Part shown: in pieces, positions 39,286-60,316 of the stretch | Layout of the letters: each line of letters opens with the position of its first letter | How positions within the stretch are numbered: the first letter of the stretch is position 1 | Assembly (NCBI GenBank): GCA_963744655.1 | Contig: CAVUUJ010000001.1 | Coordinates: 335,835 to 399,834 of the forward strand | Length of the DNA stretch: 64,000 nucleotides | Direction: 5' to 3' | DNA from: an uncultured bacterium | GTDB taxonomy: Bacteria > Verrucomicrobiota > Kiritimatiellia > PWTM01 | The notes under the pieces: generated by a model | What the model saw: only the letters and a program-made list of their open reading frames with translations | The model's database searches: none | What the model was told of the DNA's origin: nothing | Made by a program: the position numbers and the translations under genes

Positions 39286-39804
39286 TCAGGGCGCGGCGGG
39301 CGGCGGGGCCTGCAGCTCCCGCAGGGCGTTCGCCACCTGCGCGGCATGGCCGGCCGTATCGACCGGGTCGAGGACGCGGGCGATGCGGCCCTCCGGGTCG
39401 ACCAGGAACGTGACGCGCCGCGCGTACAGCCCGGAGGGGGCGAGCACCCCGTACGCCTCGGCGACGGCCTTGCCGTCGTCGCCCACCAGATCGAAAGGCA
39501 GCCGGTGCTTCTCCTTGAACTTCCGCTGCAGCGCCAGGCTGTCCAGGCTCACGCCCAGCACGGCGGCCTGCAGCCCGGCCAGGTCCCGGATCCCGTCGCG
39601 CAACGAGCAGGCCTCGCGGGTGCAGCCTGGGGTGAGGGCCTTGGGGTAGAAGAACAGGACCAGCCAGCGGCCCGTGAAGTCCTCCAGCTTGGCCGGTCCG
39701 CCCGTGGTCGACGCGGCGAACGGCGGCGCCGCGTCGCCCGGCTGCAGCGCCGGAGCGGAGAGGGCGGCGGAGAGCAAGAGGGTCGTGGCGATAGCTCGTT
39801 TCAT
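39286..39804 (-). CDS. bcp: Bcp-type peroxiredoxin with signal peptide
   Basis: VLFFYPKALTPGCTREAC carries the PxxxTxxC peroxidatic site. The N-terminal signal is MKRAIATTLLLSAALSAPA. Confidence 0.8.
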   Translation of the reverse strand: MKRAIATTLLLSAALSAPALQPGDAAPPFAASTTGGPAKLEDFTGRWLVLFFYPKALTPGCTREACSLRDGIRDLAGLQAAVLGVSLDSLALQRKFKEKHRLPFDLVGDDGKAVAEAYGVLAPSGLYARRVTFLVDPEGRIARVLDPVDTAGHAAQVANALRELQAPPPAAP

Positions 39805-39997
39805 GGTCGGTCTCCCGTGGTTTCCGGCACTCTACGACACCCGGCGGGCGGTTGCCACCCGCGGGCGCGGGTCCTTGCGCGGCGAGGGCGCCCGGACCCG
39901 CGGGGCGGGCGCGGGCGTCCGCGTCTCGCCGGTGGACGTCCGGCCCCGCGATCGGCTAGGCTTCGGGCGCCGGCGGGAGACTACCGTGACGACAAGC

Positions 39998-46440: not shown

Positions 46441-49400
46441 CGTTGGTGGCGGCGGGCAGCGCGGAGAGCGGGACGCCCTCGATCGACGCGGGCGCGAGGG
46501 CGGTCGCCAGGGTCTGCGCGAGGTACCGGCGGTCGCCCGCCGACGGGGCGAAGCTCAGGCTGAACGTCCCGCCCTCCCGCGCGGCCCGGCGTTGCAGGAC
46601 CTGCCGGGGCTCGCACGGGTCGGTGACGTCAAGCAGGCAGATGTCGGGGGTCGGGAAGCCGCGCACGGTAACGGACGCGTGGCCGGCCGCGTCGAACGCG
46701 AGCCGCCCCGCCTCCGCGACGTAGCGGCGCGGGTAGGCGATGTCGAAGCTGTCGACGTAGAAGTACGTGAAGGGCACGCCGGCGTCGAGGACGCCCGCCA
46801 CTTCCAGGGTGTTGGTCCCGTCGGCCAGCAGCGCGGGGCTGAAGGCGGCGGTGAGCACGGCGGGCTGCGCGCCGTTCCAGCTCACCTCGCCCACGGGGGT
46901 GCCGTTGACCCGCACGACGGCGTGCTGGTCGGGATTGGCCGTCGTGTCGGCCGCGCCCTGCAGGTACACGGTGACCTCCGCGTCGGAGCCGGCGGCACTC
47001 CGGCCGCGGGTCGTGAAGGCGAACCGCAGCGGGGCGCCCGGCGCGCTCGCCGTGACGTACTGGTAGCCCCAGAGCCACATGTCGTCGTCGGCGTCGTAGA
47101 ACAGCGAGTTGGCCGGGAACACGTCCTGCTCGTAGTGTGTGCGGTCGACGAACCAGGCGGTGCCGTCGTCGGGGACCGCGCGGCCGGCGCCCACGGTCGC
47201 CGCCTTGATGCCGCGGCCGGACTCGAGCCAGTAGACGTTCTCCGTCGTGAAGAGGCTCTCGATCGCCTCCCCGTGGAAGAAGAGGCCCGTGCCGCCGGTG
47301 TCGGCGATCCAGGGGATCTCGAAACCCTGGTGGGACAGCCGGAAGCCCTGCCGCGCGAGCATCCCCTGCACGTCCGGCGTCGCGAGACCCAGCGCGGCGG
47401 CCAGGTCGGCGGCGTCCACGCGGTGGAGGCCGCCGGCGGTGACGCGCAGGCGGACGCGGTAGGTCGGCACGGCGGGGTTGGCCGCCTCGGCGCGGAGCTC
47501 CGCCTCGGCGCGCGCCGCCGCCGTCGCGCTCGCCGTGCGGTCCAGCGTGGCGGGACGCGCCCGCTGCTCGAAGCGCGGCGCCGGGTCCGGCGCCGCGGGG
47601 GTGCGCGCGGCGCTCCGCGCGCGGCCGGCCGGGCGGGCGGTGGCCGGGACGGCGCCGGGGCCCCGCGGCGCGCCTTCGCCGTAGGGGCCGTAGTGGCGCG
47701 TGAGCCCGGAGGCCTCGACCTCGCGCAGCACGTAGCGGTAGGGCACGTCCCGGCGCGCCGAGGCGTCGACCAGCCGGTAGGTTCCGCCCTGCACCGAGGT
47801 GAGCATCGCGGGCAGGATGTCGGGGTGCACGGGCTCGTAGTCCGCGTCGCCGGGTCCGCGCCGCAGCACGTAGAAGCCGACGGTGCCGACCTCGGAGGCC
47901 GTCTCCCACTCGACGGCGAGCCCCTCGTCCGCGGGCGTCACCTCGAAGCGGGTCACGAGGACGAGCGTGGGGCGCTCGGACGTGTAGCAGAAGTCCGCCC
48001 CGTCCAGGTCCGCGTCCACCAGCGTGACGGGATAGGGGTTCACCTGGCCCTGGTCCACGGTGTCGGGGATCCCATAGGTGGGCCGCTTCATGGCGAGCAC
48101 GCCGGTGGTGTCGCTGACGGCCACGAGGTAGTGGCCCGGGGGCAGGGAGACGAAGGCGAAGTCGCCGCCCGCATCGGTCGTGGCCGTGCCGAACGAGGGG
48201 TCGCCGGCATCCCACACGCCGTTGCCCGCGAGGTCGCGGTAGAGCGTCACGGCCACGCCGGGCAGGGCCGGATCGAGCGCATCCCGGTCGCCCTGGCCGT
48301 CGAGGTCCTCCCACACGGTGCCGAGGATCGACAGGGGCGTGGCGGCCGCGGCATAGCCGAAGTCGGCCAGGAGGCTGTCGGGCGCGGCCCCGGTAAGGAC
48401 GAGCCCGTAGGGGTCGAGCTTGCTGAAACCGTCCGCGTTGGCGATGCCGAGGGTCTTGGTGAACCCGTCCAGGACGTGCCCCACGTCGGTGACGTGCACG
48501 AGGTAGCGCGCCGCCGGCAGGCCGCCGAAGAAGTACCCGCCCCGGGCGTCGGTGGTCTCCGAGGTGACGAGGTTGTCGGTGCCGGGCTCGAGCAGGCCGT
48601 TTTCGTCGACGTCCTGCCAGAGTTCCAGGGTCACGCCCTGCAGGCCCGGCTCGCCGGGGGCGCGGAACCCGTCGGCGTCGCGGTCGTGGAATACGAGGTC
48701 GCCCAGCAGGCCCGCCTCGCCGCGGTAGCCGAAATCGAGGTCGGCCCGGTGCTCGCCCGCCGCCAGGGAAACGACGGCGGAGGGATTCGTGCCGGCCGTG
48801 AGGTGGAGGCCGCCGAGCACGGCGCCCGTGTCGGTGACGGTCACGCGGTAGCCGCCGGCCGCGAGGCCCCGGAAGCGGTAGGCGCCGAGGGGACCGGTCG
48901 TGACGACGGCCGCGGCGTCGCCCTGCGCGTTGAGCAGCGCGAGCGAGACGCCGGGGATCCCGTCCTCGCCGGCATCGACCGCGCCGTCGCCGTCGGTGTC
49001 GGCCCATACGAGGTCGCCGATGCGGCCCATGCCGGGCGCGTGGAAGCCGAAGTCGAGGTTCGCGCGGCTGTCGTTCGCCGGGTCGGCGTCGTCGAGGAAG
49101 GTGATGCCGCCGCTGGTGAGGCCGCCCGCGCTCTGCGGTCCGACGGTGGCGGTGCAGCCCTCGAGGGGGCCGCCCGCGCCGAAGTTGGACGCAGCGACCA
49201 CGACGTGATAGGTCCCCGTACCGAGCCCGGTGAAGCGGTAGAGGCCCGCCGCGCCGGTCGTGGTCGTGGCGACCGCCGTGCCGTTCGAGACCAGGTCGAG
49301 GACCACCCCGCCGCGGCCCGCTTCGTCCGGGTCCTGGATGCCGTCCTCGTCCGCGTCGGCCCACACGAAGTCGCCGACCGCGTACCCCGTGCCGCGGTAG

Positions 49401-52400
49401 CCGAAATCGGCCTCGCGGTACGCCTCGCCGCCGCTGAGCGGGATGGCGCCGGTCACGTCGCCGCCCGTCGTGGACGCCATCCCCTCGAGGACGCCGCCGG
49501 CGGCGAAGTTGGCCGGGGCCGTCCCGGCGAAGTACACCCCGGCCGACAGGCCGGCGAAGACGTAGCTGCCGTCGGGAAGGACGACGGTGGCGGCGGCCTG
49601 CGCGTCGGCGCCGGCGTCGTACTGGCCGTTTCCGTTCGTGTCCCCGTACAGGTTCACCACGGTGCCGGGCAGGCCCCGCTCGTTGGCGTCGCGCACGCCG
49701 TCGCCGTTCGTGTCGTACCAGGCGGTGTCGCCGATCGACGCCGTCCGCCCGTCGCGCACGTAGCCGAAGTCGATGCCGCCGACGTCGGCGCCCGCGACGG
49801 TGACGGGGCGGGTGCTGAGCCCGGTCGTGATGCGGTACCCGTCGAGGACCCCGTGGCGGTCGGTGACCTTCACCGCGAAGCTGCCGTCCGGCACGCCGCG
49901 GAAGGCGTAGGACCCGTCGGCCGCCGAGGCGGTCTCGGCCACGGTCGCGCCGCCGGCGTCGACGAGGGCGAGGGTGACGCCGGGGATCGGCGGCTCGCCC
50001 GCGCCGCCGTCGGCGCCGTCGGTGTCGAGGTCGTTCCACACCGAGCCGGAGACGTCGTGCAGGGACGCGTTCCGGAAGCCGAAGTCGGCCTCCATGTCGC
50101 TGGAGAGAACGGTGGGAACCGCCGCGTTCTGCTGGAGGCCCGCGGCGCCGGCGCCGGCCTGCTCGTCGGCCACGGTGGCGGCGTAGCCGGCCAGGGCGGC
50201 CTGGCCCGCGTCGAGGCTGACGAAATACGTGCCGGGTGCCATGCCCTCGAAGACGTAAAGGCCGGCGGCGTCGGTGACGTGGGTGGCGACCGCGGTGTCG
50301 GCGGACGCCTCGAACACGCCGTTGCTGTCCGCGTCGCGCCACAGCACGACGGCGACGCCGCCGAGACCCGGCTCGCCCGGGCTCCGCAGCCCGTCGCCGT
50401 CGGCGTCGCTCCACACCGTGTCGCCCACGGCGCCCGCGCGGACGTAACCGAAGCGGGTGCCGGAGACATCGGCTCCGGCGACGGCCGCGGGGGCCCGGCG
50501 GGCGGCGGCCGGGGCCGTGGTGGGGGTAGTGGCGGCCAGTTTCCCGGCGGTGTCGGAAACGGCCAGGCTGTAGTCGCCGTCGGGCAGGCCGTGGAACGAG
50601 AAGGTGCCGTCCGCGGCGCTGGCGGCGGTGGCGATCACCGTCCCGCCCGCGTCGAGCAGGTTGACGGTCAAGCCGCCGATGCCGGGCTCGCCCGGGTCGG
50701 CCGTGCCGTCGCCGTCGGCGTCGTACCAGGCGCGGTCGGTGATGCCGTGCAGCGACGCGTTGCGGTAGCCGAAGTCGGCGTTGAGGTAGACGTCGCCCGG
50801 CGCGGCGGTGAAGGGCGCGGACGGGTCGCTGCCGCCGGTGAGCGCGTACGCGGCCAGGACCGCGTCGGTGTCGGTGACGGCCACGGTGTACTCGCCGGGC
50901 GCGACATCCGCGAAGTGGTACGTGCCGTCCGCGGCCGTGGTGGTCGCGGCGACGGCCGCGCCGCTGGAGACCAGCGCGAGGGTGACGCCCCCGAGGCCCG
51001 GCTCGCCGGGGTCGCGGACGCCGTCGCCGTCGGCGTCGCTCCAGACGAGGTCGCCGATCCAGGCGGCGCCGGTGTCCGGAGGCGTGAAGCCGAAGTCGGC
51101 GTCCGCGAACCGCTCGCCCAGGGCCAGGACCACGGCCAGGGGGTCCTGCGTGCCCGGCGCGGCGGCCAGGCCGGCGGGGAGCGTGCCGCCCAGCACGTCC
51201 ACGGTGAACGCGCCCGCGGGCAGGCCGGCGAAGAGATACGTGCCGCCCGCCCCGGTCACGTTCGTGGCCAGGGGCGCGAGGTGCTCATCGTGGAGGACGA
51301 CCGCGACATTCGGCAGGCCCGGCTCGCCCGGGTCGAGGAGGCCGTCGCCGTCGACGTCGAACCAGACCGTGTCGCCGACACTGGCCGTCTCGCGGTCGGT
51401 GTCGAGGAAGTCGTTTCCGGCGTAGGCGGTGAGCACGGTGACCCGGACGGGAATCCGGTTGTCGTTGGGGCCGGCCGTGTCCGCCACGCTGGTGTAGCCG
51501 GCGGGGTCCGTCTCCACGACGACGTACGGCCCGTCGCCCAGGTGTAGGAACTCGTACGTCCCGTCGGCGCCGGTCGCCTGGAGGCGCAGGAGCGCGCCGT
51601 CGGCGGGGTCGCCGTCGCCGTTGGGGTCGCTGAAGAGGGCGACGCCGACGCCGGCGAGCGGGGTGTCGCCGCCGAAGCCCGGGTTGGCGCGGTCCTCGCA
51701 GACCCGACCGGAAACGGAGGCGGCCAGCGTGACGAGGCCGGCGGTGTCCGCCGCGGGCGGCACGGGGTCGCCGTGGACGTCGAGGGCGTAGTCGACCGCC
51801 GCGCGGTTGGACGCGGGGTCGCCGCCGCCGACGACGCGGAACGTGACGTCGACCGTTGCGGCCGCGCCGGGCTCGAGCTGGCCGGCGCCCGTCAGGTCGA
51901 GCCAGAGCAGGCTGCCCGAGCCCTGGCCGTCGGGCTCCGGCGTGGCGCTCACGAACTCGAAGCCACTCGCACTGAAGGTGTCCTCGAGCGGAAGCTCCGC
52001 CACGGCCGTGCTGCCGGTGTTGGTGACGGCGACGCGGAACAGCACCAGCTCGCCGAAGGAGGCCGGGCCGGGGGTGAGGACGGTCTTGGCGACCACCAGG
52101 GCCGGCTGCGTGACGGCGACGGCCGCGGTGTTTGTCGAGACGGCGGCTCCGGCCGTCGCGACGGCGCGGTTCGTCGCGGCCGGCGAGGGGCCGGCGGCGG
52201 TGAAGTCGACGACGACGTTCGTCGCGGCGCCGGGGGCGAGGGGGCCGACGTTGTTCCAGGCGAGGGTGCCGGCCCCGGCGGCGTCGGGCGGCGGCACGGC
52301 GGTGTCGAAGGCGAGCGCGGCGGCGGGGTAGGTGTCGGTCACCTGCACGGTGCCCTGCGTCGTGCTGCCGGTATTCACCACCCGGAGCAGGAAGCGGACG

Positions 52401-55400
52401 GCGTCGCCGGCGACCGCCTGCCCGTCGGCGGGAGCGAGCAGCGACTTGCTGACGGAGATGCCGGGCACGCCGGGTGCGGCGGGCACCGTCGCGGTGTCGC
52501 CGGACGTGTCCGTCGGGTCGTCGGGGTCGGTGTAGGACACGGCGAGGGCCGTGGACGCGGGGGCGTGGAGCACCCCGTCGCCGGGCGACCCGGCGACGGT
52601 CGAGCTGGCGGGGAGGCTGTTGGTGAAGACGCCCGTGTCGACCCCCGTCTCGGCGAGGGTGAGGGTCTCGGTGTCGCCCGTGCCCGTCGTGAGGGTGACC
52701 TGCACCGTGTCGATCGCGAGGGGATCGGTGTCCTGGTCCAGGTCGGTCGTGCGCACGCAGACGGTCTCGTTCGTGGCATAGACGGCCGTGTGCGGCCCGT
52801 TCGGCCCGGTGGTGAACTCGGTCGTGCTCGGGGTGCCCAGGTCGAGCGGGCTCAGCGCGACCGGCGTGGAGCGCGAATCGGTCACGTCGCCCTCGTAGCC
52901 CTCGTGGGCGGTGACGCTGACGGTGTAGTTGCCCTCGACCGCGCCCGTGTGCCAGGCGTACTCGTACGTCTTCGAGCACGCGTCGGCCGCCACGACGCCC
53001 GCGTCGTCCAGCGCGAGCGAGAGGTCGCCGCCGATGCCCGGTCCGTCGGCGGAGAGGTCCAGCCCGGTGATGTCGGAGGCGCCGAAGGGGTCGCTCACCG
53101 TGGCGCGGACGAAGACGGTCTGCCCGTTGGCCGCCGCGGTCAACGGGGCGCCGCCGGGAAAGGCCGCGTCGTAGAGGGCGAGGTCGACGACGCGGATGAC
53201 CGTCGTGGTGGGCAGGACGACCCGGGAGGGATGGGCGAGGCTGTCGTACAGCACCCGGAACGCGCCCCCGCCTTCGTCGCTGGCCACTTCGAGCTGCACG
53301 GCCGATCCCGCGGGGAAATGGGTCGAGACGGGCACGACCCCGCTCCACGCGAGGGTGCCCGCGCCGCTGTCGTAGACGGCGTTGGTGAGGGTCAGGGCGT
53401 AGCCGCCCTCCACGCCGACGCGCGCGGTCACGCTCGGGTGGGCGGGCAGGGCGCCGCTCGTGACCTCGACGTGGGCCACCACCTCGACGAGGCCGCCGGC
53501 GGGGAGGGCGAGCGGCTCGCAGAGCGCGGGCGCCAGGGTGAAGACCGTGCTCGCGCCGCCCGTCGCGGGCGCCGGCCGGACCGGGACGCCGAGGAGCGCC
53601 CACGCGTCGTAGTTGCACGTCCAGGAGATCGTCGCGCCGGACCCGCCAGGCGTCGTGCTGCCGCCCGAGCGGATGCCGTCGCTGTTCGCCACCTCCGAGT
53701 AGCCGTTCCAGAGCACGGTGCTGCCGGCGCCCGGCGTGGCGCTGCGCGAGTCGTCGAGCGCGAAGACGCCGAAGACCAGGTCGCCGTCGTCGGAAGACAC
53801 CGCGAGACTCGCGCTCGTGCCGGAGCCCTTGGTGGTCGCGGGCGTGCCGAGCGGCGAGGAGAGGTCGACGCCGGTGAACGTCGTGACCGCCGCGAACACC
53901 GAGTCGTCGTCGTTGGCGCGGCCGTCCGAGAGGGAAACGACCACGGTGCCGGCGCCGCTCGCCGGGGAGGTGAGCCGCCAGATCTCGCCCTCGGCCTCCT
54001 GGTTCGAAGCGCGCCGGCGGACCCGGGTCAGGCCCTGGGTGGACGTGCCCACGACGTAGTCGACCGCGCTGACGTCGAGACTGGCGGTGCCGTCGTCCTC
54101 GATCCCGATGCCGACGAGCATCAGCCGGTTGGCGCCGGCGGCGGTGACGTGGTCCACGGAGAGGGAGGTGAGCGCCGAGGAACCCTCGGCCACGCTGCCG
54201 GTGGAGACGTTGGACACGGCAAGGGCCGAGGCGGTGCGGAGGACGGCCCCGGTGGACGTGGTCGTGTCGCCCGTGGCCACGGGGTCCACGCGGTCGAGGA
54301 TGTTGCCCGGGCCCGCGTCGCCCAGGTACAGGGGCTTGAACTCGCTGGGGGCGGCCACCACCGCGGTGTCGCTGCAGGTGTCGCCGTACAGCGGATCGGT
54401 GTAGCGGGCGACGAGCCCGTCGCCCGCCAGGGCGTGCAGCGTGCCGTCGCCGGGCGCCAGCCCGAGCGTGGTGGAGGAGGCCAGGGGCGAGCCGCTGGCG
54501 AACACGTGCGTGTCGGGCCCCGTCTCGGCCAGGAGGACGGTTTCCACGTCGCCGGTCACCAGGTCCGTCACGATGACCTCCACGGTTTCGATGGCGAGGG
54601 CATCCGTGCCGGCGTCGATGTCCGAGAGGCGGAGGTAGACGGGAGCGTTGGCGCTGTAGACCCCGACCGGGACGCCGGCCGCGTCGGTGAAGTCCACCAC
54701 GCACGGGTGCGACCCGGCCGGGGGCGGGACGACGATATCGTGGGTGTCGCCCACGCCGGGCAGGGAGGACTGGGCGGTATTGGTGATGTCGCCGCCCGCG
54801 AGGATGACGGTGCGGTAGCGCACCGTGGTCGACTGGCCGCGCAGCAGCAGCGGGATCAGGATGCCTTCCTCGTCGAGGGGGAACGCCGAGGCGGGCGCGG
54901 CGTCGTCGCCGATCGGTACGCCGTCCCGCACCGTGCTGTCGGCGACGTAGGCCAGTTGCGGGGGCAGGCCGTCGAGCACCAGCAGGTTGCCGAGGGCGAC
55001 CAGGCTGCTGTTGTCGAGGGTGATCCGGTACTCGAGCGTATCGCCGATGCTGAGGCCCGGCAGGCCCGAGTCGACGGCGATCGAGCAGTCCTTGACGAAC
55101 ACGGGGACGGGGAACGCGGGCACGGTGGTCCCCATGTCGAGATACGGGTTGCCCGGGCCGGCGACCGCGGGATCCTGGCCCCAGGCGGCGGTGATCAGCG
55201 TGCCGTCGAGCGTGTAGACCCGGAGGCCGGTCTGGTCCCTGTCGCCGTCGTAGAGGCGCCGGATTTCGAGGGCGGCGACGTCGAAATGCTCGTCGTACTC
55301 CTCGCCGGCGGGGTCGGTGAGGGGGCCGCTCCGGTCGCCGTCGTAGTCGACGTAGATGCGGGTGGCGTCCGTCGCCGTGACCCACACGGGGCTTCCGTTG

Positions 55401-56623
55401 CGCGACAGGTCGCTGCTTCCGGGACCCCAGCCCACCACGGCCAGGGTGGTCAGGTTCTGAACGGGCACGAGGCTGTAGCCCCAGTCGTGCACGTTGTTCG
55501 CCGAGGGTTCCGCGCCCACGGCGCCGACGGCGAAGAACGGCTCGCCGCCGTCGGAGCGGAAACGGGCCGCGGAACTCTGCGGCATGAGGAAACGGTAGGT
55601 GTCGCGGGGCGGCACGTCGAAGGAACCGGAGCCGGTGCGCGTGGTGTAGTGGATGGTCACGGGCTGCGCGGCGGCGTTGTGGAGGAGGATGTAGGTGTCG
55701 TCGCCGTCCGCCGCCGTGCCCACGGGCGCGTAGTAGTCCCCGCTCCACTGGTCGGCGGGCGCGAGCGTGAACCAGCGCGACTCGTAGTTCGCGCCGATGT
55801 CGCCCGTGAGGAGGTGGACCTGCACCGGCTTGGACGCCTGCACGGTCGCGCCCTTGAGGATGCCGCCGTTCACCATGTGGGACTCGCCAGGGCCGAGCGT
55901 GACCGCGACGTCCGCCGAGCCGTCGGCGTCGGTGTCGATCTGCACCGCCGTTTCGTCCTCGGCGGCCATGACCAGGAGCCAGACGCGCTCGAACATCGAG
56001 GCGTAGGCGGGGGAGGGGAAGACCACGTCCTGCCCCACGGGCGCGACGTAGGACACGCCCCAGTCGAGCGTCGCGGTGACCTCCACCGCGTCGGCCAGCA
56101 CGCTGCCCGGCTGGACGGCCCACGCGGCGCGGGACATGACGATGCCCTTGGTGGCGCCGACGCGGTCGCGGGCGTCGTACAGGACGGTGGAGGGGTTGCG
56201 CGGAAGCGTGACGAGGTTGCGCAGCGCGATCACGTCGCCCGCGTTGAGAGCCGCGGGATCGCTGGCGAACCCGGGCGGCTTGCCGTTCGCGTCGATGCCG
56301 TCGCCCCACACCTGCGTCGAGGCCTGGGCCGGATGGTCGAGGTCGATTTCGTAGCCGTCTTCCCAGTGGTCGTACACGACGCGCGTGCCGTTGACGCCCA
56401 TGACCATCGAGACGACCGAGTCGATCGTGGTGCCGGTGTTGCCGGCCAGGACCAGGAAGGCCTGGCGGACCTGCTGTTCCGGCACCGGGACGTAGTACGA
56501 CTGCACGACGCTCTGTGCCGGGGCGGAGGGAACCGCCGCGGCCAAGAGACAAGCCGCGGCGGCCGCGACGGTCCATCGTGCGCCCGGACGCGAAACAAGG
56601 GGGTGCATGGCTCTCGTCTTCAT
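45254..56623 (-). CDS. 3,789-aa secreted multi-repeat surface protein with a C-terminal gingipain-like (C25) cysteine peptidase domain
   Basis: ATG 56623 is preceded by GAGGAA and the Sec signal is MKTRAMHPLVSRPGARWTVAAAAACLLAAAVPSAPA|QS. It contains DUF11-type modules, 11 SdrD-B-like modules, and a C-terminal NYTGHSG / AITCIIG / LLGDP region. The frame is unbroken for 11.4 kb. The 190 codons upstream in the track ORF overlap the fur gene out of frame and are not coding. Confidence 0.85.
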   Translation of the reverse strand: MKTRAMHPLVSRPGARWTVAAAAACLLAAAVPSAPAQSVVQSYYVPVPEQQVRQAFLVLAGNTGTTIDSVVSMVMGVNGTRVVYDHWEDGYEIDLDHPAQASTQVWGDGIDANGKPPGFASDPAALNAGDVIALRNLVTLPRNPSTVLYDARDRVGATKGIVMSRAAWAVQPGSVLADAVEVTATLDWGVSYVAPVGQDVVFPSPAYASMFERVWLLVMAAEDETAVQIDTDADGSADVAVTLGPGESHMVNGGILKGATVQASKPVQVHLLTGDIGANYESRWFTLAPADQWSGDYYAPVGTAADGDDTYILLHNAAAQPVTIHYTTRTGSGSFDVPPRDTYRFLMPQSSAARFRSDGGEPFFAVGAVGAEPSANNVHDWGYSLVPVQNLTTLAVVGWGPGSSDLSRNGSPVWVTATDATRIYVDYDGDRSGPLTDPAGEEYDEHFDVAALEIRRLYDGDRDQTGLRVYTLDGTLITAAWGQDPAVAGPGNPYLDMGTTVPAFPVPVFVKDCSIAVDSGLPGLSIGDTLEYRITLDNSSLVALGNLLVLDGLPPQLAYVADSTVRDGVPIGDDAAPASAFPLDEEGILIPLLLRGQSTTVRYRTVILAGGDITNTAQSSLPGVGDTHDIVVPPPAGSHPCVVDFTDAAGVPVGVYSANAPVYLRLSDIDAGTDALAIETVEVIVTDLVTGDVETVLLAETGPDTHVFASGSPLASSTTLGLAPGDGTLHALAGDGLVARYTDPLYGDTCSDTAVVAAPSEFKPLYLGDAGPGNILDRVDPVATGDTTTSTGAVLRTASALAVSNVSTGSVAEGSSALTSLSVDHVTAAGANRLMLVGIGIEDDGTASLDVSAVDYVVGTSTQGLTRVRRRASNQEAEGEIWRLTSPASGAGTVVVSLSDGRANDDDSVFAAVTTFTGVDLSSPLGTPATTKGSGTSASLAVSSDDGDLVFGVFALDDSRSATPGAGSTVLWNGYSEVANSDGIRSGGSTTPGGSGATISWTCNYDAWALLGVPVRPAPATGGASTVFTLAPALCEPLALPAGGLVEVVAHVEVTSGALPAHPSVTARVGVEGGYALTLTNAVYDSGAGTLAWSGVVPVSTHFPAGSAVQLEVASDEGGGAFRVLYDSLAHPSRVVLPTTTVIRVVDLALYDAAFPGGAPLTAAANGQTVFVRATVSDPFGASDITGLDLSADGPGIGGDLSLALDDAGVVAADACSKTYEYAWHTGAVEGNYTVSVTAHEGYEGDVTDSRSTPVALSPLDLGTPSTTEFTTGPNGPHTAVYATNETVCVRTTDLDQDTDPLAIDTVQVTLTTGTGDTETLTLAETGVDTGVFTNSLPASSTVAGSPGDGVLHAPASTALAVSYTDPDDPTDTSGDTATVPAAPGVPGISVSKSLLAPADGQAVAGDAVRFLLRVVNTGSTTQGTVQVTDTYPAAALAFDTAVPPPDAAGAGTLAWNNVGPLAPGAATNVVVDFTAAGPSPAATNRAVATAGAAVSTNTAAVAVTQPALVVAKTVLTPGPASFGELVLFRVAVTNTGSTAVAELPLEDTFSASGFEFVSATPEPDGQGSGSLLWLDLTGAGQLEPGAAATVDVTFRVVGGGDPASNRAAVDYALDVHGDPVPPAADTAGLVTLAASVSGRVCEDRANPGFGGDTPLAGVGVALFSDPNGDGDPADGALLRLQATGADGTYEFLHLGDGPYVVVETDPAGYTSVADTAGPNDNRIPVRVTVLTAYAGNDFLDTDRETASVGDTVWFDVDGDGLLDPGEPGLPNVAVVLHDEHLAPLATNVTGAGGTYLFAGLPAGAFTVDVLGGTLPAGLAAAPGTQDPLAVVLALGERFADADFGFTPPDTGAAWIGDLVWSDADGDGVRDPGEPGLGGVTLALVSSGAAVAATTTAADGTYHFADVAPGEYTVAVTDTDAVLAAYALTGGSDPSAPFTAAPGDVYLNADFGYRNASLHGITDRAWYDADGDGTADPGEPGIGGLTVNLLDAGGTVIATAASAADGTFSFHGLPDGDYSLAVSDTAGKLAATTPTTAPAAARRAPAAVAGADVSGTRFGYVRAGAVGDTVWSDADGDGLRSPGEPGLGGVAVVLWRDADSNGVFEASADTAVATHVTDAAGLYVFEGMAPGTYFVSLDAGQAALAGYAATVADEQAGAGAAGLQQNAAVPTVLSSDMEADFGFRNASLHDVSGSVWNDLDTDGADGGAGEPPIPGVTLALVDAGGATVAETASAADGSYAFRGVPDGSFAVKVTDRHGVLDGYRITTGLSTRPVTVAGADVGGIDFGYVRDGRTASIGDTAWYDTNGDGVRDANERGLPGTVVNLYGDTNGNGQYDAGADAQAAATVVLPDGSYVFAGLSAGVYFAGTAPANFAAGGVLEGMASTTGGDVTGAIPLSGGEAYREADFGYRGTGYAVGDFVWADADEDGIQDPDEAGRGGVVLDLVSNGTAVATTTTGAAGLYRFTGLGTGTYHVVVAASNFGAGGPLEGCTATVGPQSAGGLTSGGITFLDDADPANDSRANLDFGFHAPGMGRIGDLVWADTDGDGAVDAGEDGIPGVSLALLNAQGDAAAVVTTGPLGAYRFRGLAAGGYRVTVTDTGAVLGGLHLTAGTNPSAVVSLAAGEHRADLDFGYRGEAGLLGDLVFHDRDADGFRAPGEPGLQGVTLELWQDVDENGLLEPGTDNLVTSETTDARGGYFFGGLPAARYLVHVTDVGHVLDGFTKTLGIANADGFSKLDPYGLVLTGAAPDSLLADFGYAAAATPLSILGTVWEDLDGQGDRDALDPALPGVAVTLYRDLAGNGVWDAGDPSFGTATTDAGGDFAFVSLPPGHYLVAVSDTTGVLAMKRPTYGIPDTVDQGQVNPYPVTLVDADLDGADFCYTSERPTLVLVTRFEVTPADEGLAVEWETASEVGTVGFYVLRRGPGDADYEPVHPDILPAMLTSVQGGTYRLVDASARRDVPYRYVLREVEASGLTRHYGPYGEGAPRGPGAVPATARPAGRARSAARTPAAPDPAPRFEQRARPATLDRTASATAAARAEAELRAEAANPAVPTYRVRLRVTAGGLHRVDAADLAAALGLATPDVQGMLARQGFRLSHQGFEIPWIADTGGTGLFFHGEAIESLFTTENVYWLESGRGIKAATVGAGRAVPDDGTAWFVDRTHYEQDVFPANSLFYDADDDMWLWGYQYVTASAPGAPLRFAFTTRGRSAAGSDAEVTVYLQGAADTTANPDQHAVVRVNGTPVGEVSWNGAQPAVLTAAFSPALLADGTNTLEVAGVLDAGVPFTYFYVDSFDIAYPRRYVAEAGRLAFDAAGHASVTVRGFPTPDICLLDVTDPCEPRQVLQRRAAREGGTFSLSFAPSAGDRRYLAQTLATALAPASIEGVPLSALPAATNGFDYVVIAPASLTEAAEELAAYRRTQGLSALVVELQELYDHFNHGVADPEAIRHFITWAVRAWNVPARYVVLAGTGTYDYRNLRGSNENLVPPGMLATPLGLFASDLPLCDIDGDAVPEVALGRLPVMTPAELRAVLAKIQSYEAGGAWKQKVFMLADDPDDGGDFPATSDGLASLVTPGYATEKAYLPQLGLPATRGSALGAFGSGAGLFNYTGHSGMDRMASEAIVTTADVPGIQNGDRPPFVVAITCIIGRFGIPGYASLSEALAASPGGGAVAVWSPVSLSFNSQNALLDQELFREIFERGTARIGDAVTVALDYYARVGEMGFMSNVYNLLGDPATAFGNPVGLQPNPVLVPSPDLSFEEWLQLHFTPRQLDHPATKQWAEQFRGTVVSP
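47985..51709 (-). repeat. Eleven tandem SdrD-B/Cna-B-like coding modules (protein-level repeats, diverged at DNA level)
   Basis: Each module opens with a (V/I)GDxVWxDxDGDG-type motif. Starts, read by hand, lie near 51709, 51378, 51058, 50745, 50428, 50056, 49737, 49380, 49024, 48710 and 48330, a period of 313-380 nt. Confidence 0.7.
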
Positions 56624-57087
56624 CTCGTTTCCTCGTGGATCGCGCCGTCCCCGGCGCGCGTCGCTGACCTGGGGCGGCATGCCCGGCAAAGGCCGATGTG
56701 GAGCTCTTCCCTGCGGACGCCCTCTTCGGGGCGGTCCGCGGGGATCGGGACGGCGGTCTGCGCGGTCGCTGCCCCCTCGGGCCGGTTCTCCACGCGCTCG
56801 CACGCGCTGCAGATGAAGTGCGCGTGGGGCGCGGTGACCGCGTCGTAGCGGCTGCGGCCGCTCAGGGTGGGAACCCGGCGGATGGCGCCCGCCCGCTCCA
56901 GCGCCGCCAGGGTGCGGTAGACGGTGTCGAGCGAGATGCCCGGGATCCGGCCGCTCACCGTCCCGAACAGCGACTCGGCGTCGGGATGCCCCTTCGCGGC
57001 GGCCAGCGCCGCGAGCACGGCAATGCGCTGCGGCGTGGCGCGAAGATGCACCTGGTCCCTCAGAACGGCGGTGGCGTAGGACTGCAT
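56620..57087 (-). CDS. Fur-family metalloregulator (Zur-like by context)
   Basis: 155 aa with a winged-helix N-terminus (LRATPQRIAVLAAL...DTVYRTLAALERAG) and HAHFICSACERV plus GLCRAC (two CxxC pairs). Its TGA overlaps the ATG of the mega-protein gene (ATGA at 56620-56623). Confidence 0.85.
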   Translation of the reverse strand: MQSYATAVLRDQVHLRATPQRIAVLAALAAAKGHPDAESLFGTVSGRIPGISLDTVYRTLAALERAGAIRRVPTLSGRSRYDAVTAPHAHFICSACERVENRPEGAATAQTAVPIPADRPEEGVRREELHIGLCRACRPRSATRAGDGAIHEETR

Positions 57088-57134
57088 AGATGGCGCCTTT
57101 CGAGCGGGCGTGTCGTACTTGCGGCGAATTCTTA

Positions 57135-57149
57135 GCTAGGACTGTGCCA
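57135..57149 (-). promoter_or_regulatory. Sigma-54-like -24/-12 element upstream of the fur-family gene
   Basis: The minus strand reads TTGGCAC-AGTCC-TAGCT against the consensus TGGCAC-N5-TTGC(A/T). GG and GC are correctly spaced. The element lies about 48 nt upstream of the ATG. Confidence 0.3.
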
Positions 57150-57400
57150 AGGTCTTCACCGCCCCGCCCGACGGCGCGCGAAGCAGTCGGCAAGACAGGC
57201 GCCGCACAGGAGCGGCCTGCGGGTAAGGGGAGGGGTGCAAGGCATAAGCCGTTCTACAGAAACCATCTACGATGGCGAAGGCAGAAACAGCCGCCAGGGC
57301 GTGCGCAAGGTGGTTAATTCGCACAAATGAGAGCCGTGTTCGCGCTGGTCAGTCCGTGTACACCCGGTGGACAAATCCGGCACCGGGACCGGAGAAGACT

Positions 57401-57429
57401 TTGCATGCGGTATTACTTCGTACTATCTT
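57401..57429 (+). promoter_or_regulatory. Sigma-70-type promoter candidate for the RHH-znuACB operon
   Basis: TTGCAT-17 nt-TATCTT (an overlapping TACTAT is also present), about 35 nt upstream of ATG 57465. Confidence 0.35.
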
Positions 57430-57464
57430 GTGGCCTGACGGTGGAGGCGCGAAGGGAGGGCAGC

Positions 57465-57803
57465 ATGACGAAGTCGGGGACCGAGGTCATTACGTTCAAG
57501 GCGGACCGGGAGCTGTCGCGTGCGATGCGAGGCATCCCGAACCGGTCGGCATTCATTCGTACGGCGATCCTGGGCGCGCTCGACAGCGCGTGCCCGCTGT
57601 GCCGCGGTACCGGGGTGCTCACGCCGTCACAGAAAGGGCACTGGGACGCCTTTGCGGCCACGCACGCGATGGAGGAGTGCGGCGACTGCCACGCCGTGCA
57701 CCTGGTCTGCGAAGCCGGAGGGCCGTCCGGCGCCGTACATCCGTCTGCCGCGGCGCGCGGGGAAGCGGCGCCGCGAACGGCCGCGCGGGGGGACGGGGCA
57801 TGA
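57465..57803 (+). CDS. Ribbon-helix-helix (CopG-like) protein with a Cys/His-rich C-terminal domain; putative metal-responsive regulator
   Basis: GAAGGGAGGG lies upstream of the ATG. VITFKADRELSRAMRGIPNRSAFIRTAILGAL is an RHH pattern, followed by CPLCRGTG (CxxCxGxG) ... H ... H ... CGDCH..H..C. The stop overlaps the znuA start (ATGA at 57800-57803). Confidence 0.65.
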   Translation: MTKSGTEVITFKADRELSRAMRGIPNRSAFIRTAILGALDSACPLCRGTGVLTPSQKGHWDAFAATHAMEECGDCHAVHLVCEAGGPSGAVHPSAAARGEAAPRTAARGDGA

Positions 57804-58660
57804 GCCGGTCGCTCGGCAGGCGCATATTGTGTGCCGCGTCGCTCGCCGCCGCGGCTTGCGGGGCGGGCACGGCGGGCGCGGCGGACGAACCGCTGGGCGT
57901 GGCGGTGAGCATCGCGCCGCAGCGCTGGCTGGTCGAACGGATCGGCGGGCCGCGCGTGGCCGTCACGGTACTGGTGCCGGCGGGTGCCGATCCGCACGTG
58001 TTCGAACCGACCGCGCGGCAGATGACCGCGCTGGCTCACGCCCGGCTCCTTTTCGCCGTGGGGATGCCGTTCGAGCCGGCCCTCGTGCCGCGCCTCCGGG
58101 CCGTCAACCCGCGCCTGCGGGTCGTGGACGTGCGCGGCGAGCGGCAGCGGGAGAGCGACGGACACGGGGGCGGCGAGGACCCCCACACCTGGCTGGACGT
58201 GCGCCAGGCCATGGGCCACGCGCGCGTGATGGCGGCCGCGCTCGCCGCGGAGGACCCCGGGGGACGCGCCGCGTACGAGGCCGGCCTGAACGGACTGCTG
58301 CGCGAGCTCGCCGCGCTGGACGACCGACTCCACGCGACGCTGGCGGCCGTGAAGGGCCGTTCGTTCCTGGTGCTGCACCCGGCGTGGGGCCACTTCGCCG
58401 GGGCCTACGGGCTCGTGCAGCGCGCCGTCGAGCAGGAGGGCAAGCCGCCCTCGGCGCGGCAGCTCGCGCGGCTGGTCGACGGGGCGCGCGCCGAGGGCGT
58501 GCGGGCGGTGTTCGTCGAGCCGCAGTTCAGCCCGCGCGCGGCGCGCGCGCTCGCCAACGAGATCGGCGCGGACGTGGTCGTGATCGATCCGCTTTCCGCC
58601 GACTACGCCGCCAACCTGGAGCGCGTGGCGCGAACCCTCGCGGAATGGCTGGCGCCGTGA
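57800..58660 (+). CDS. znuA: Periplasmic metal-binding protein, ZnuA/TroA family (cluster 9 SBP)
   Basis: It has a signal peptide, ADPHVFEPT, a short His/acidic loop ESDGHGGGEDPHTWLD, and HPAWGHF. It is followed by the ABC ATPase and permease genes. Confidence 0.8.
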   Translation: MSRSLGRRILCAASLAAAACGAGTAGAADEPLGVAVSIAPQRWLVERIGGPRVAVTVLVPAGADPHVFEPTARQMTALAHARLLFAVGMPFEPALVPRLRAVNPRLRVVDVRGERQRESDGHGGGEDPHTWLDVRQAMGHARVMAAALAAEDPGGRAAYEAGLNGLLRELAALDDRLHATLAAVKGRSFLVLHPAWGHFAGAYGLVQRAVEQEGKPPSARQLARLVDGARAEGVRAVFVEPQFSPRAARALANEIGADVVVIDPLSADYAANLERVARTLAEWLAP

Positions 58661-59466
58661 AGGGGACGCCCGAGCGGCCCGCGGTGATCGAAGTGCGCGA
58701 CGTGTGCTTCGGCTACGGCGCGGACGAGACGCTGCACAACGTCGGTTTCAAGGTCCGGGCACGCGACATGGTCGCGGTGGTGGGGCCGAACGGCGGCGGC
58801 AAGACGACGCTGCTGCGGCTGCTGCTCGGCCTGCTCGCCCCGCGGTGGGGGACGGTGCGCGTGCTGGGCGGGGATCCCCGGCGGGCGAGCCGCCGCATCG
58901 GCTACGTGCCGCAGCGGCTGGAGTGCGACCCGCGGTTCCCGGTGACGGTGTCCGACGTGGTGTCGATGGGCCGCGTGGAAGCCCACCGCTTCGGGCCGTA
59001 CCGCGCCGCCGACCGCGGGGCCGTCGAGCGCGCGCTTGCACAGGTGGGCATGGAAGGCCTCGCGCGCCGGCCGTTTGCGCGGCTCTCCGGGGGCGAGCGG
59101 CAGCGCGTGCTGATCGCCCAGGCCCTCGTGTCGGACCCGGCGGTCCTGCTGCTCGACGAGCCCACGGCCAATGTCGATCCGGCGGCAGAGCACCGGCTCT
59201 TCGAGCTGTTCCGCGCGCTCAACGAACGGCTGACGCTCATGCTCGTCTCGCACAACGTCAACGTCGTGACCCGGCACGTGAGCCACGTGCTGTGCGTGAA
59301 CCGCACGGCGGAGATGCATCCGATCGAGGCCTTGCTCTCGTCCGAGTTCCGCGAGTCCTACGGCGGGGAGATGGCCGTCATCCTCCACGACGTGCAGTGC
59401 CACGTCGTGGACCGCTCGCGCGTGCTGGCGACCGGCCACCGCGGGGAAGCCGGGGAGGGCCGCTGA
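58657..59466 (+). CDS. znuC: Metal ABC transporter ATP-binding protein
   Basis: The GTG start overlaps the znuA stop (GTGA). Walker A is GPNGGGKTT, the signature is LSGGERQRVLIAQAL, and Walker B is LLLDEP. Confidence 0.85.
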   Translation: MKGTPERPAVIEVRDVCFGYGADETLHNVGFKVRARDMVAVVGPNGGGKTTLLRLLLGLLAPRWGTVRVLGGDPRRASRRIGYVPQRLECDPRFPVTVSDVVSMGRVEAHRFGPYRAADRGAVERALAQVGMEGLARRPFARLSGGERQRVLIAQALVSDPAVLLLDEPTANVDPAAEHRLFELFRALNERLTLMLVSHNVNVVTRHVSHVLCVNRTAEMHPIEALLSSEFRESYGGEMAVILHDVQCHVVDRSRVLATGHRGEAGEGR

Positions 59467-59467
59467 G

Positions 59468-60316
59468 ATGGGCGCCTTCCTGCACGACGCCTCGCAGTAC
59501 GCCTTCCTCCAGTACGCGCTCGCCGCCGCGGTGCTCGCCTCGGTGGCGGCCGGCACGGTGGGCAGCTACGTGGTGGCTCGCCGCACGACGTACACCGCCG
59601 GCGCCATCTCGCACTGCCTCCTGGGGGGCATGGGCGCGGCCCGGTACTTCCAGCGGGTCCACGGCGTGGCCTGGCTGACGCCGATGCACGGCGCGGTGGC
59701 TGCGGCGTTGCTCGCCGCGCTGCTGATCGGCGGGCTGAACGCGCGCGGCCGGCACCGTGGCGACACGGTGCTCAGCGCGGTGTGGGCGCTGGGCATGGCG
59801 GTCGGCGTCTCGTTCATGGCCGCCACGCCGGGCTACCACGAGGACCTGATGAGCTACCTCTTCGGGAACATCCTCATGGTGACGCCCGGCGACCTCGGCC
59901 TGATGGCGGCGCTGGACGCGGCGATCGTGGTCTGCGTCCTGCTCGTGCACGACCGGTTCCTGGTCATCGGGTTCAACCCGGAGCTGGCGCGGCTGCGCGG
60001 TCTGTGCGTGGGGTGGTACGAGTCGCTGCTGCTGATCCTGACGGCGCTCACGGTGGTCCTGCTGGTCAAGGTGGTCGGGGTCGTTCTCGCGATCGCGCTG
60101 CTCTCCCTGCCGCCGGCGGCGGCGGGGCTGTTCACGCGGAGGCTCGGGACGATGATGATCGGCGGGGTGGCCGTGGCCCTCGTCGTCACGGTGGGCGGCC
60201 TCGCCCTGAGCTACGCGCCCGACTGGCCCGCCGGCGCTACGATCGCGGAGCTGGCGGGGCTGGTCTATCTCCTGGCCGCGGGGGCCCGCCGGCTGCCCGT
60301 CTTCCGGGGCGGCTGA
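59468..60316 (+). CDS. znuB: Metal ABC transporter permease
   Basis: 282 aa, polytopic, of the ABC-3 family type (YAFLQYALAAAVL..., LLSLPPAAA). Confidence 0.85.
   Translation: MGAFLHDASQYAFLQYALAAAVLASVAAGTVGSYVVARRTTYTAGAISHCLLGGMGAARYFQRVHGVAWLTPMHGAVAAALLAALLIGGLNARGRHRGDTVLSAVWALGMAVGVSFMAATPGYHEDLMSYLFGNILMVTPGDLGLMAALDAAIVVCVLLVHDRFLVIGFNPELARLRGLCVGWYESLLLILTALTVVLLVKVVGVVLAIALLSLPPAAAGLFTRRLGTMMIGGVAVALVVTVGGLALSYAPDWPAGATIAELAGLVYLLAAGARRLPVFRGG

What the first reader, a model, noticed from the sequence alone, without database searches (positions are those of the whole stretch)
56608..57149. Fur-family regulator whose stop codon overlaps the start of the 11.4-kb mega-protein gene
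Seen: the 155-aa Fur-family ORF ends in a TGA that overlaps the ATG of the mega-protein gene (ATGA at 56620-56623). The alternative start at 56608 is still only 12 nt away, so the two genes must be co-transcribed. The pair is divergent from an RHH-znuACB metal-uptake operon across a 377-bp, visibly less GC-rich spacer.

Established: Fur/Zur regulators next to znuABC usually act as Zur.

Inference: expression of the giant surface protease/adhesin is tied to metal (probably zinc) status, with the regulator made stoichiometrically from the same mRNA. That arrangement is unusual for a Fur-family protein.
Basis: partly seen in the sequence, partly recalled or inferred. Interest (0 to 1): 0.6.

Follow-up and report, generated by a model that had tools for sequence, protein, structure and literature searches.

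The report
PerR-like regulator gene overlapping giant-protein gene
A small metal/peroxide-sensor-type regulator gene does overlap the start of an 11.4-kb surface-protein gene, but it belongs to a peroxide-response (PerR-like) branch, not the zinc branch, and the pairing occurs in this genome only, so it is a lineage-specific curiosity, not a new system.

Summary
A 155-aa Fur-family ORF (56620-57087, minus) ends in a TGA that overlaps the ATG (ATGA, 56623-56620) of a 3,789-aa secreted SdrD_B/DUF11/peptidase-C25 protein. A GAGGA Shine-Dalgarno lies 6 nt upstream. No terminator separates the genes. This junction is ordinary here: about 14% of confident ORFs in this genome end in an NTGA overlap.

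The zinc/Zur reading is not supported.
- The best sequence, HMM and fold matches are PerR.
- Zur sensing ligands are absent (2 of 4).
- Of the 80 nearest genomic homologues, 50 sit directly upstream of rubrerythrin, katG, peroxiredoxin, ferritin or rubredoxin, some with the same ATGA overlap. None is near znu genes or a giant protein.
- The divergent RHH-znuACB module is conserved in relatives without any Fur gene.
- None of 14 giant-protein homologue loci has a Fur gene upstream.

The regulator is also atypical. The metal-ligand Asp that is invariant in 80 of 80 homologues is Asn101 here. No Fur/PerR box occurs in the spacer or anywhere in the genome. A sigma-54-like -24/-12 element lies 48 nt upstream.

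Most likely this is a lineage-specific operon fusion of a PerR-type regulator with a giant surface-protein gene. Whether the regulator controls that gene is unproven.

The parts
56620..57087 (-). Fur-family (PerR-like clade) regulator gene, 155 aa. Winged-helix DNA-binding domain plus a divergent dimerisation domain. Cys4 site at C93/C96/C134/C137. Ligands H34, D82, H88 and H90 kept. Asn101 replaces the invariant Asp.
   Evidence: Pfam FUR 76 bits. PerR NCBIfam models score best but below cut-off. PDB PerR 2fe3 is best by sequence and 3f8n best by fold. AF2 pLDDT 82.5, with residues 103-128 of low confidence. Column statistics over 81 sequences.
56620..56623 (-). ATGA stop/start overlap between the regulator gene and the giant-protein gene
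   Evidence: Direct reading. NTGA overlaps are common in this genome, 185 of 1,320 ORFs.
56630..56634 (-). GAGGA Shine-Dalgarno for the giant gene, inside the regulator's last codons, 6 nt before ATG 56623
   Evidence: Direct reading.
45254..56623 (-). Giant secreted protein gene, 3,789 aa. It has a signal peptide, a conserved ~480-aa N-terminal domain without a Pfam model, DUF11/CLIPPER repeats, 11 SdrD_B repeats, and a C-terminal peptidase C25 / PorU-like domain.
57088..57464 (.). 377-bp divergent spacer, 55-65% GC. It must hold the promoters of both units.
   Evidence: No sigma-70 consensus match. No 7-1-7 Fur/PerR box.
57135..57149 (-). Sigma-54-like -24/-12 element TGGCAC-N5-TAGC, 9 of 10 consensus positions with GG-N10-GC spacing, 48 nt upstream of the regulator's ATG. 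Candidate promoter.
   Evidence: The genome has rpoN and at least 6 enhancer-binding proteins. There are 68 sites of this quality genome-wide, so about 0.004 are expected per spacer and strand. Absent upstream of 77 Fur homologues and 14 giant-protein homologues.
57128..57134 (-). TAAGAAT, identical to one half of the perfect TAAGAAT-A-ATTCTTA box upstream of a relative's regulator gene. The other half is missing here, so this is at most a half-site.
   Evidence: relatives' boxes in L024, L056, L026 and L025. Post hoc match of low weight.
57465..57803 (+). RHH plus Cys/His-rich small protein. First gene of the znu operon and its likely dedicated regulator.
   Evidence: Conserved at 54-61% identity in front of ZnuA and ZnuC in 9 relatives, without a Fur gene. 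More than 120 homologues, no Pfam model.
57800..60316 (+). znuA (57800-58660), znuC (58645-59466), znuB (59468-60316)
   Evidence: Pfam ZnuA and ABC-3. ZnuC identified by tblastn and ORF.
43575..45086 (-). Prolyl-tRNA synthetase gene, 168 nt downstream of the giant gene. A housekeeping gene, so the operon probably ends at the giant gene.
   Evidence: Pfam tRNA-synt_2b, HGTP_anticodon and ProRS-C_1.

Best explanation
The 155-aa ORF is a real but atypical Fur-family regulator of a PerR-like clade. In that clade the regulator gene is normally the first gene of a short peroxide-defence or iron operon (perR-katG, perR-rbr-rd, perR-prx, perR-hemA).

In this 73%-GC MAG, the place of the defence gene is taken by an 11.4-kb gene for a secreted SdrD_B/DUF11/C25-peptidase protein. 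The MAG looks like a PVC-superphylum organism, inferred from best hits only.

The two genes form one bicistronic unit:
- They share an mRNA started in the 377-bp spacer. The only candidate promoter found is a sigma-54-type -24/-12 element at 57149-57135.
- Ribosomes finishing the regulator gene stop on a TGA that overlaps the giant gene's ATG, with a GAGGA 6 nt upstream (translational coupling).

Inferred, not shown: if the regulator represses its own promoter, as Fur-family proteins usually do, the giant gene is derepressed by the same redox or metal signal.

The signal is unlikely to be zinc. The neighbouring znuACB operon has its own conserved RHH/Cys-rich regulator candidate, and its divergent position is probably coincidental.

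The pairing is lineage-specific, most simply the product of a rearrangement. The sensor site is altered (Asp to Asn101), so normal PerR-type sensing is in doubt.
For: Same unit:
- ATGA overlap and SD.
- No terminator.
- Compact NTGA junctions are the rule in this genome.

PerR-like clade:
- NCBIfam PerR models score 78.5 and 69.3 bits, against Fur 43 and Zur 31.
- The best PDB sequence hit is B. subtilis PerR 2fe3. The best fold hit is PerR-Zn-Mn 3f8n.
- PerR ligands H37, D85, H91 and H93 are kept as H34, D82, H88 and H90, and the Cys4 site is kept.

Clade context:
- P0005: fur-katG-rbr-trx. P0008: fur/katG with a 4-nt ATGA overlap. P0012: fur/rbr-rd.
- Same-class genomes: katG, 1-Cys Prx, hemA-hemCD, rbr.
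- 50 of 80 genome loci have Rbr, KatG, ferritin, Rd or AhpC starting within 1 kb downstream.
- 69 of 79 have a co-directional ORF within 300 nt, and 12 of these overlap.

Uniqueness:
- 0 of 80 Fur loci hold a giant-protein homologue.
- 0 of 6 plus 0 of 8 giant-protein homologue loci hold a Fur gene.

Not Zur:
- Of the ScZur M-site ligands D65, C79, H85 and H87, only the two His are kept (R70, V84, H88, H90).
- RHH-ZnuA-ZnuC is conserved in 9 relatives, with no Fur gene within 10 kb in the 7 loci checked that far.

Sigma-54:
- The site scores 9 of 10, and rpoN plus at least 6 EBPs are present.
Against: - There are no expression data.
- No operator was found. No 7-1-7 Fur/PerR box exists in the spacer or anywhere in the 3.03-Mb assembly, although most relatives examined carry one before their regulator gene.
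- The Asp equivalent to PerR D104 is invariant in 80 of 80 homologues but is Asn here. The neighbouring conserved Gly and hydrophobic residue are also changed. The dimerisation-domain helix is not predicted. The protein may therefore be impaired.
- The PerR recognition-helix Asn61 is Arg here and across the whole clade, so 'PerR' rests on context and HMM rank, not on both signature residues.
- Nearest homologues are at most 54% identical, so orthology is uncertain.
- No second genome of this genus exists.
- The MAG is only 65% complete, so a true Zur or Fur may lie in the missing part.
- The sigma-54-like site has TAGC instead of TTGC and is not conserved in any relative.
Confidence: 0.55

Rival explanations
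1. Relic regulator. After a rearrangement put the giant gene behind a perR-type gene, the regulator lost its sensing function and is drifting. The giant gene is simply expressed from whatever promoter is in the spacer (for example sigma-54 plus an enhancer-binding protein). The overlap then has no regulatory meaning beyond co-expression.
For: - Asn101 replaces an Asp invariant in 80 of 80 homologues. G97 is E and the conserved hydrophobic residue at 102 is R.
- Residues 103-128 are Pro/Ala-rich, with low confidence and no helix.
- No Fur/PerR box exists anywhere in the genome.
- The genome's other perR-like copy is a frameshifted remnant upstream of a frameshifted katG, suggesting the peroxide regulon is decaying.
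- The adjacency is not conserved.
Against: - The ORF is intact in one frame over its whole length.
- The DNA-binding domain, the Cys4 site and four of five sensor ligands are kept.
- GC3 is 0.87, typical of coding sequence here.
- Asn can still ligate metal.
Confidence: 0.25
2. First reader's model. The protein is Zur. It represses both the divergent znuACB operon and its own fur/giant-gene operon from the shared spacer, which ties the giant protein to zinc status.
For: - The gene is divergent from a znuACB operon across a shared 377-bp spacer.
- It is the only intact Fur-family gene in the assembly.
- From general knowledge, Zur genes often lie next to znu genes.
Against: - The Zur NCBIfam model scores 31 bits against a cut-off of 167, and ranks below the PerR, Irr and Fur models.
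- The Zur-specific Asp and Cys ligands are absent.
- 0 of 80 nearest homologues are near znuA, znuB or the RHH gene.
- RHH-znuACB is conserved in relatives without a Fur gene.
- That operon starts with its own RHH/Cys-rich putative regulator, whose family has more than 120 members.
Confidence: 0.08
3. Independent promoters. The giant gene has its own promoter inside the regulator's coding sequence, so most of its mRNA does not include the regulator gene. The overlap would be only genome compaction.
For: - In all 14 relatives examined, the giant-protein gene stands alone behind a spacer of at least about 230 bp in the loci with called genes, with no regulator gene.
- The consensus promoter scan is uninformative in this organism, with 0 hits anywhere in 12.8 kb.
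Against: No promoter-like element was found in 56620-57087. That region scores below 8 of 10 for sigma-54 and has no sigma-70 match. An SD placed for coupling and a 4-nt overlap are the usual marks of operon partners.
Confidence: 0.12

Closest known systems
PerR-headed peroxide-defence operons. Examples: the C. difficile rbr1 operon repressed by PerR (PMC8546684), and the perR-katG and perR-rbr operons of anaerobes seen here in L056-L058, L122 and others.
   Same: - A Fur-family repressor gene is co-transcribed with, and often overlaps, the gene it controls.
- Best HMM, sequence and fold matches are PerR.
- The Cys4 site and four of five sensor ligands are kept.
   Different: - The cargo is a 3,789-aa surface protein, not a peroxide-defence enzyme.
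- The fifth ligand Asp is Asn.
- No PerR/Fur box was found.
- A possible sigma-54 promoter is present.
Zur-znuACB divergons
   Same: A Fur-family gene lies divergent from a znuACB operon across a shared spacer.
   Different: The Zur sensing ligands are missing. The linkage is not conserved. The znu operon carries its own RHH regulator candidate.
Leptospira PerRA/PerRB control of the large Ig-repeat adhesins LigA and LigB (PMC8638967)
   Same: PerR-type regulators influence expression of very large repeat-rich surface proteins.
   Different: In Leptospira the control acts in trans, possibly indirectly, and the genes are not linked. Here the only evidence is physical linkage.
Borrelia BosR, a Fur/PerR homologue acting at the sigma-54-dependent rpoS promoter (PMC3037356)
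   Same: A Fur-family protein is associated with a sigma-54-type promoter.
   Different: BosR acts as an activator at another gene's promoter. Here the sigma-54-like element would drive the regulator's own operon, and it is unverified.

Membership tests
Fur family (PF01475) | N-terminal winged-helix DNA-binding domain plus C-terminal dimerisation domain | tested here: met
   Pfam 76.3 bits against a cut-off of 23.1. AF2 model pLDDT 82.5. All top Foldseek hits are Fur-family proteins, TM up to 0.73. The helix of the dimerisation domain is not predicted.
Fur family (PF01475) | Structural Zn(Cys)4 site from two CxxC motifs | tested here: met
   C93, C96, C134 and C137 sit in columns that are invariant or near-invariant across 81 sequences.
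PerR | Five-ligand regulatory site (B. subtilis H37, D85, H91, H93, D104) | tested here: not met
   H34, D82, H88 and H90 are present. The D104 equivalent is N101, whereas 80 of 80 homologues have D.
PerR | Asn61 in the recognition helix, the canonical PerR residue cited in PMC8638967 | tested here: not met
   The aligned residue is R58 (TVYRTL), as in Fur and Zur, and as in every member of this clade.
PerR | Score above the curated equivalog cut-off | tested here: not met
   78.5 bits against 180, and 69.3 against 200. These are nevertheless the two best-ranking models.
PerR | Linkage to or control of peroxide-defence genes | tested here: inconclusive
   Met for the homologues: 50 of 80 loci. 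Not met for this gene itself, whose downstream gene is the giant protein.
PerR | Peroxide-dependent histidine oxidation and release from DNA | not testable with these tools
   Needs purified protein.
Zur | Zn-sensing site (S. coelicolor D65, C79, H85, H87, or equivalent including Cys) | tested here: not met
   The aligned residues are R70, V84, H88 and H90. D-site residues H84, H86 and H122 align to P87, A89 and R126; E105 was not mapped.
Zur | Score above the curated equivalog cut-off | tested here: not met
   31.4 bits against 167.
Zur | Conserved linkage with zinc-uptake genes | tested here: not met
   0 of 80 homologue loci have ZnuA, ZnuB or RHH. 0 of 7 RHH-znu loci in relatives have a Fur gene within 10 kb.
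Sigma-54-dependent promoter | GG-N10-GC with TGGCAC / TTGC, and rpoN plus enhancer-binding proteins in the genome | tested here: inconclusive
   The site matches 9 of 10 positions with exact spacing. rpoN and at least 6 EBPs are present. No upstream activator site or linked EBP was identified, and the site is not conserved in relatives.

The most novel reading that the evidence does not exclude
A PerR-derived regulator that has changed its invariant Asp metal ligand to Asn has been rewired as the leader gene of a sigma-54-driven operon. It gates production of a giant C25-peptidase/adhesin protein in response to a redox or metal cue. That would be a cis-linked sensor for surface remodelling in an uncultured PVC-type bacterium.
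Probability: 0.15. Interest if true: 0.6.

Novelty: new variant of a known kind. Interest (0 to 1): 0.3.

Why it matters
If the regulator is active, this would be a rare case where a giant adhesin/protease gene is wired in cis to a Fur-family sensor. That would give a direct handle on when such very costly surface proteins are made in uncultured PVC-type bacteria.

As it stands, the main value is corrective.
- Proximity to znuACB does not make a Fur-family gene a Zur.
- The likely znu regulator here is a widespread, uncharacterised RHH/Cys-rich protein.
- The clade to which this regulator belongs is a large group of PerR-like genes that head katG, rubrerythrin and peroxiredoxin operons in anaerobes.

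Tried and rejected
1. Operator search. Relatives show AT-rich 7-1-7-type boxes 14-36 nt before their regulator genes. The window's spacer has none. A genome-wide scan for TNANAATNATTNTNA found no perfect site and only two 9-of-10 sites, neither upstream of an identified peroxide- or metal-related gene. The core [AG][GT]AATNATT[CA][CT] does not occur at all. Only a half-site, TAAGAAT, lies in the spacer.

2. Sigma-70 promoter scan. There were 0 hits in 12.8 kb, so it is uninformative for this organism.

3. Terminator between the genes. The flagged hairpin at 56569-56553 is not part of the minimum-free-energy fold, and z = -0.45.

4. Compensating frameshifts as the cause of the odd C-terminal half. 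Rejected, because homologues align in a single frame throughout.

5. Synteny reconstruction of how the pairing arose. Ten 11-20-kb regions from relatives share no other window genes, so they are too divergent.

6. Sigma-54 sites upstream of giant-protein homologues or Fur homologues. None found. Eight of the 14 perfect genome matches are copies of one palindromic repeat, not promoters.

8. Conservation in close relatives. The regulator is a singleton among 5.8 billion proteins. The next best hit is 53% identical over 58% of its length.
Full report
**What is there**

On the minus strand, a 155-aa ORF (56620-57087) ends in a TGA whose last three bases, plus the preceding A, form ATGA (56623-56620). 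The ATG of that ATGA opens a 3,789-aa ORF (45254-56623).

A GAGGA (56634-56630) sits 6 nt before that ATG. A second in-frame ATG lies at 56608. The long ORF begins with a Sec-type signal peptide. Its homologues align from the mature end AQS|VVQSYYVP, so the start is at one of these two ATGs and not further upstream.

The small ORF is a Fur-family protein (Pfam FUR 76.3 bits). The long one carries DUF11/CLIPPER repeats, 11 SdrD_B repeats and a C-terminal peptidase C25 / PorU-like domain.

Across a 377-bp spacer of 55-65% GC (the window is 73%) lie, on the plus strand, an RHH/Cys-rich gene (57465-57803), then znuA, znuC and znuB. Prolyl-tRNA synthetase follows the giant gene.

**Is the overlap special?**

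No. With a GC3-based ORF filter on the whole assembly (3.03 Mb, 4 contigs, 65% complete), 185 of 1,320 ORFs end in an NTGA that starts another confident ORF. The RHH/znuA junction is also ATGA.

The hairpin flagged as terminator-like just inside the giant gene is not formed in the best fold, and the region folds no better than shuffles. So the two genes look like ordinary operon partners with translational coupling. Equal stoichiometry does not follow from that.

**Which kind of Fur-family protein?**

- All NCBIfam scores are far below the curated cut-offs, but the ranking is PerR (78.5 and 69.3 bits), then Irr (49.8), Fur (43), Zur (31).
- The best solved-structure match by sequence is B. subtilis PerR (2fe3), then 6dk4 (deposited as a ferric uptake regulation protein).
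- The AF2 model (pLDDT 82.5) matches PerR-Zn-Mn 3f8n best, although all Fur-family folds score closely.
- In the ungapped alignment to 2fe3, PerR's H37, D85, H91 and H93 are H34, D82, H88 and H90. Both CxxC pairs are present.
- Against S. coelicolor Zur (3mwm), the Zn-sensing D65 and C79 align to R70 and V84, and none of the D-site ligands that could be aligned is kept.

**Context of relatives**

The protein is a singleton. The nearest of 5.8 billion proteins is 53% identical over 58% of its length.

Its three best relatives on long contigs are:
- fur-katG-rubrerythrin-thioredoxin;
- fur/katG with a 4-nt ATGA overlap;
- fur/rubrerythrin-rubredoxin with a 23-nt overlap.

In genomes of the same class, the best hits precede katG, a 1-Cys peroxiredoxin, hemA-hemCD and rubrerythrin.

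In 80 loci from species-representative genomes:
- 50 have a co-directional rubrerythrin (25), katG (15), ferritin-like (4), rubredoxin (4) or AhpC (2) gene starting within 1 kb downstream;
- none has a homologue of the giant protein, ZnuA, ZnuB or the RHH protein;
- 69 of 79 have a co-directional ORF within 300 nt, and 12 of these overlap, several as ATGA with an SD.

So this clade consists of PerR-type regulators that lead the operons they presumably control. Being first in an operon, and overlapping the next gene, is normal for it.

**Is the pairing with the giant gene conserved?**

No. The giant protein's N-terminal ~480 residues are 55-69% identical in hundreds of 2,000-6,000-aa proteins of Verrucomicrobiota, Kiritimatiellia, Lentisphaerae and others.

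Six such loci with called genes and eight in related genomes have no Fur gene upstream. In the loci with called genes, the giant gene stands behind its own spacer.

The two C25-bearing relatives examined are followed by a second giant C25 gene. Here the follower is proS.

**Is the link to znu conserved?**

No. The RHH protein is 54-61% identical in ten related genomes. It precedes ZnuA and ZnuC in nine of them, and no Fur gene lies within 1.5 kb (nine loci) or 10 kb (seven loci).

The RHH family has more than 120 members and no Pfam model. It is the natural candidate regulator of the znu operon. The divergent position of the Fur-family gene is therefore best read as coincidence.

**Oddities of this regulator**

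- In an alignment of 81 sequences, the Asp equivalent to PerR D104 is invariant in the 80 homologues and is Asn101 here.
- The Gly after the first CxxC (64 of 81) is Glu here.
- The hydrophobic residue after the Asp (78 of 81) is Arg here.
- Residues 103-128 are Pro/Ala-rich and are modelled as low-confidence coil where Fur-family proteins have a helix. This is not a frameshift artefact.
- The clade as a whole has Arg, not Asn, at the PerR N61 position. That fits the Fur-box-like palindromes seen before several relatives' genes, for example TAAGAATAATTCTTA and GATAATTATTATC. The signature residues are those cited in PMC8638967.

In this genome no such box exists in the spacer or anywhere else. 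Only a half-site, TAAGAAT (57134-57128), is present.

Elsewhere in the assembly, a second perR-like sequence survives only as a frameshifted remnant upstream of a katG that is itself split between two frames.

**Promoter**

I confirm TGGCAC-N5-TAGC at 57149-57135 (9 of 10 positions, exact GG-N10-GC spacing).

In its favour:
- The genome encodes RpoN and at least six enhancer-binding proteins.
- Sites of this quality number 68 genome-wide, so about 0.004 are expected per spacer and strand.

Against it:
- Eight of the 14 perfect genome matches belong to one palindromic repeat, not to promoters.
- No such site precedes any giant-protein or Fur homologue.

It is a candidate only.

**Reading**

- Most likely (about 0.55): a PerR-type regulator gene and a giant surface-protein gene were joined into one operon in this lineage. 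Any autoregulation would carry over to the giant gene. The signal is not zinc.
- A serious rival (about 0.25): the regulator is a decaying relic and the linkage has no sensory meaning.
- The Zur model rates about 0.08.

Known parallels are PerR-repressed operons that include perR's neighbours (PMC8546684), PerRA/PerRB effects on the large LigA/LigB adhesins in trans (PMC8638967), and BosR at a sigma-54 promoter (PMC3037356).

Noticed in passing
own genome G000:C1:56996-60800 (outside the window): A katG gene is split between two reading frames (HSPs 59189-58047 and 58054-56996). About 1.4 kb upstream lies a decayed perR-like remnant. Its C-terminal half reads RYDANTDRHHPFVCSACGRVRDF..., with a frameshift before ...MRGRCRRC, and its N-terminal domain is barely recognisable. 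A 254-aa secreted-protein ORF lies between them. This suggests loss of the canonical perR-katG module, or local assembly errors.
   Followed up: partly
window 57465-57803 (+): An RHH protein with CPLCRGTG...CGDCH...C motifs. It is conserved at 54-61% identity immediately upstream of ZnuA and ZnuC in nine related genomes. It has more than 120 homologues (up to 77% identity) with no Pfam model. It is a candidate zinc-sensing regulator family for znu operons.
   Followed up: partly
window 55064-56510 (-), residues ~38-520 of the giant protein: An N-terminal domain with no Pfam or NCBIfam model. It is 55-69% identical across at least 294 giant proteins (2,100-6,500 aa) from Verrucomicrobiota, Kiritimatiellia, Lentisphaerae, Hydrogenedentes, Chloroflexi and Cyanobacteria. 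This is unusually strong conservation for the head of otherwise variable repeat proteins.
   Followed up: partly
L031 15136-20994 and L032 17937-23454; own genome C2:2109097-2111157: The two C25-bearing relatives of the giant protein examined are each followed by a second giant SdrD_B/GEVED/C25 gene. This genome has its second C25 paralogue (38% identity over the C25 region) at an unlinked locus.
   Followed up: no
own genome, 8 copies, e.g. C1:90539-90590, C1:119484, C2:684550, C2:1142302, C2:1162762, C2:1472534, C2:1763146: A repeated element of about 52 nt, ACGTCCACGTCCTGGCACGCGGGTTGCATCGCAGCCCCGCGTGCCAGGTGCC, containing an inverted repeat (TGGCACGCGGG ... CCCGCGTGCCA). It mimics a perfect sigma-54 -24/-12 consensus. 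It may be a REP-like or mobile-element end.
   Followed up: no
own genome C2:1575499 (+) and C2:2087462 (-): Perfect TGGCACG-N4-TTGCA sites lie next to enhancer-binding-protein genes. One precedes a prepilin-type N-terminal (pseudopilin-like) ORF. These are likely genuine sigma-54 promoters of this organism and useful as a reference set.
   Followed up: no
window 39286-39831 (-): An AhpC/TSA peroxiredoxin gene lies 5.4 kb beyond the end of the giant gene on the same strand. proS and a plus-strand GH130 gene lie between them, so it is not part of the operon.
   Followed up: no
L025 7102-10061 (related genome G001): The Fur-family homologue in the closest family-level relative directly precedes hemA and a hemC-hemD fusion. 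This echoes, from memory, the hemAXCDBL membership of the B. subtilis PerR regulon.
   Followed up: no
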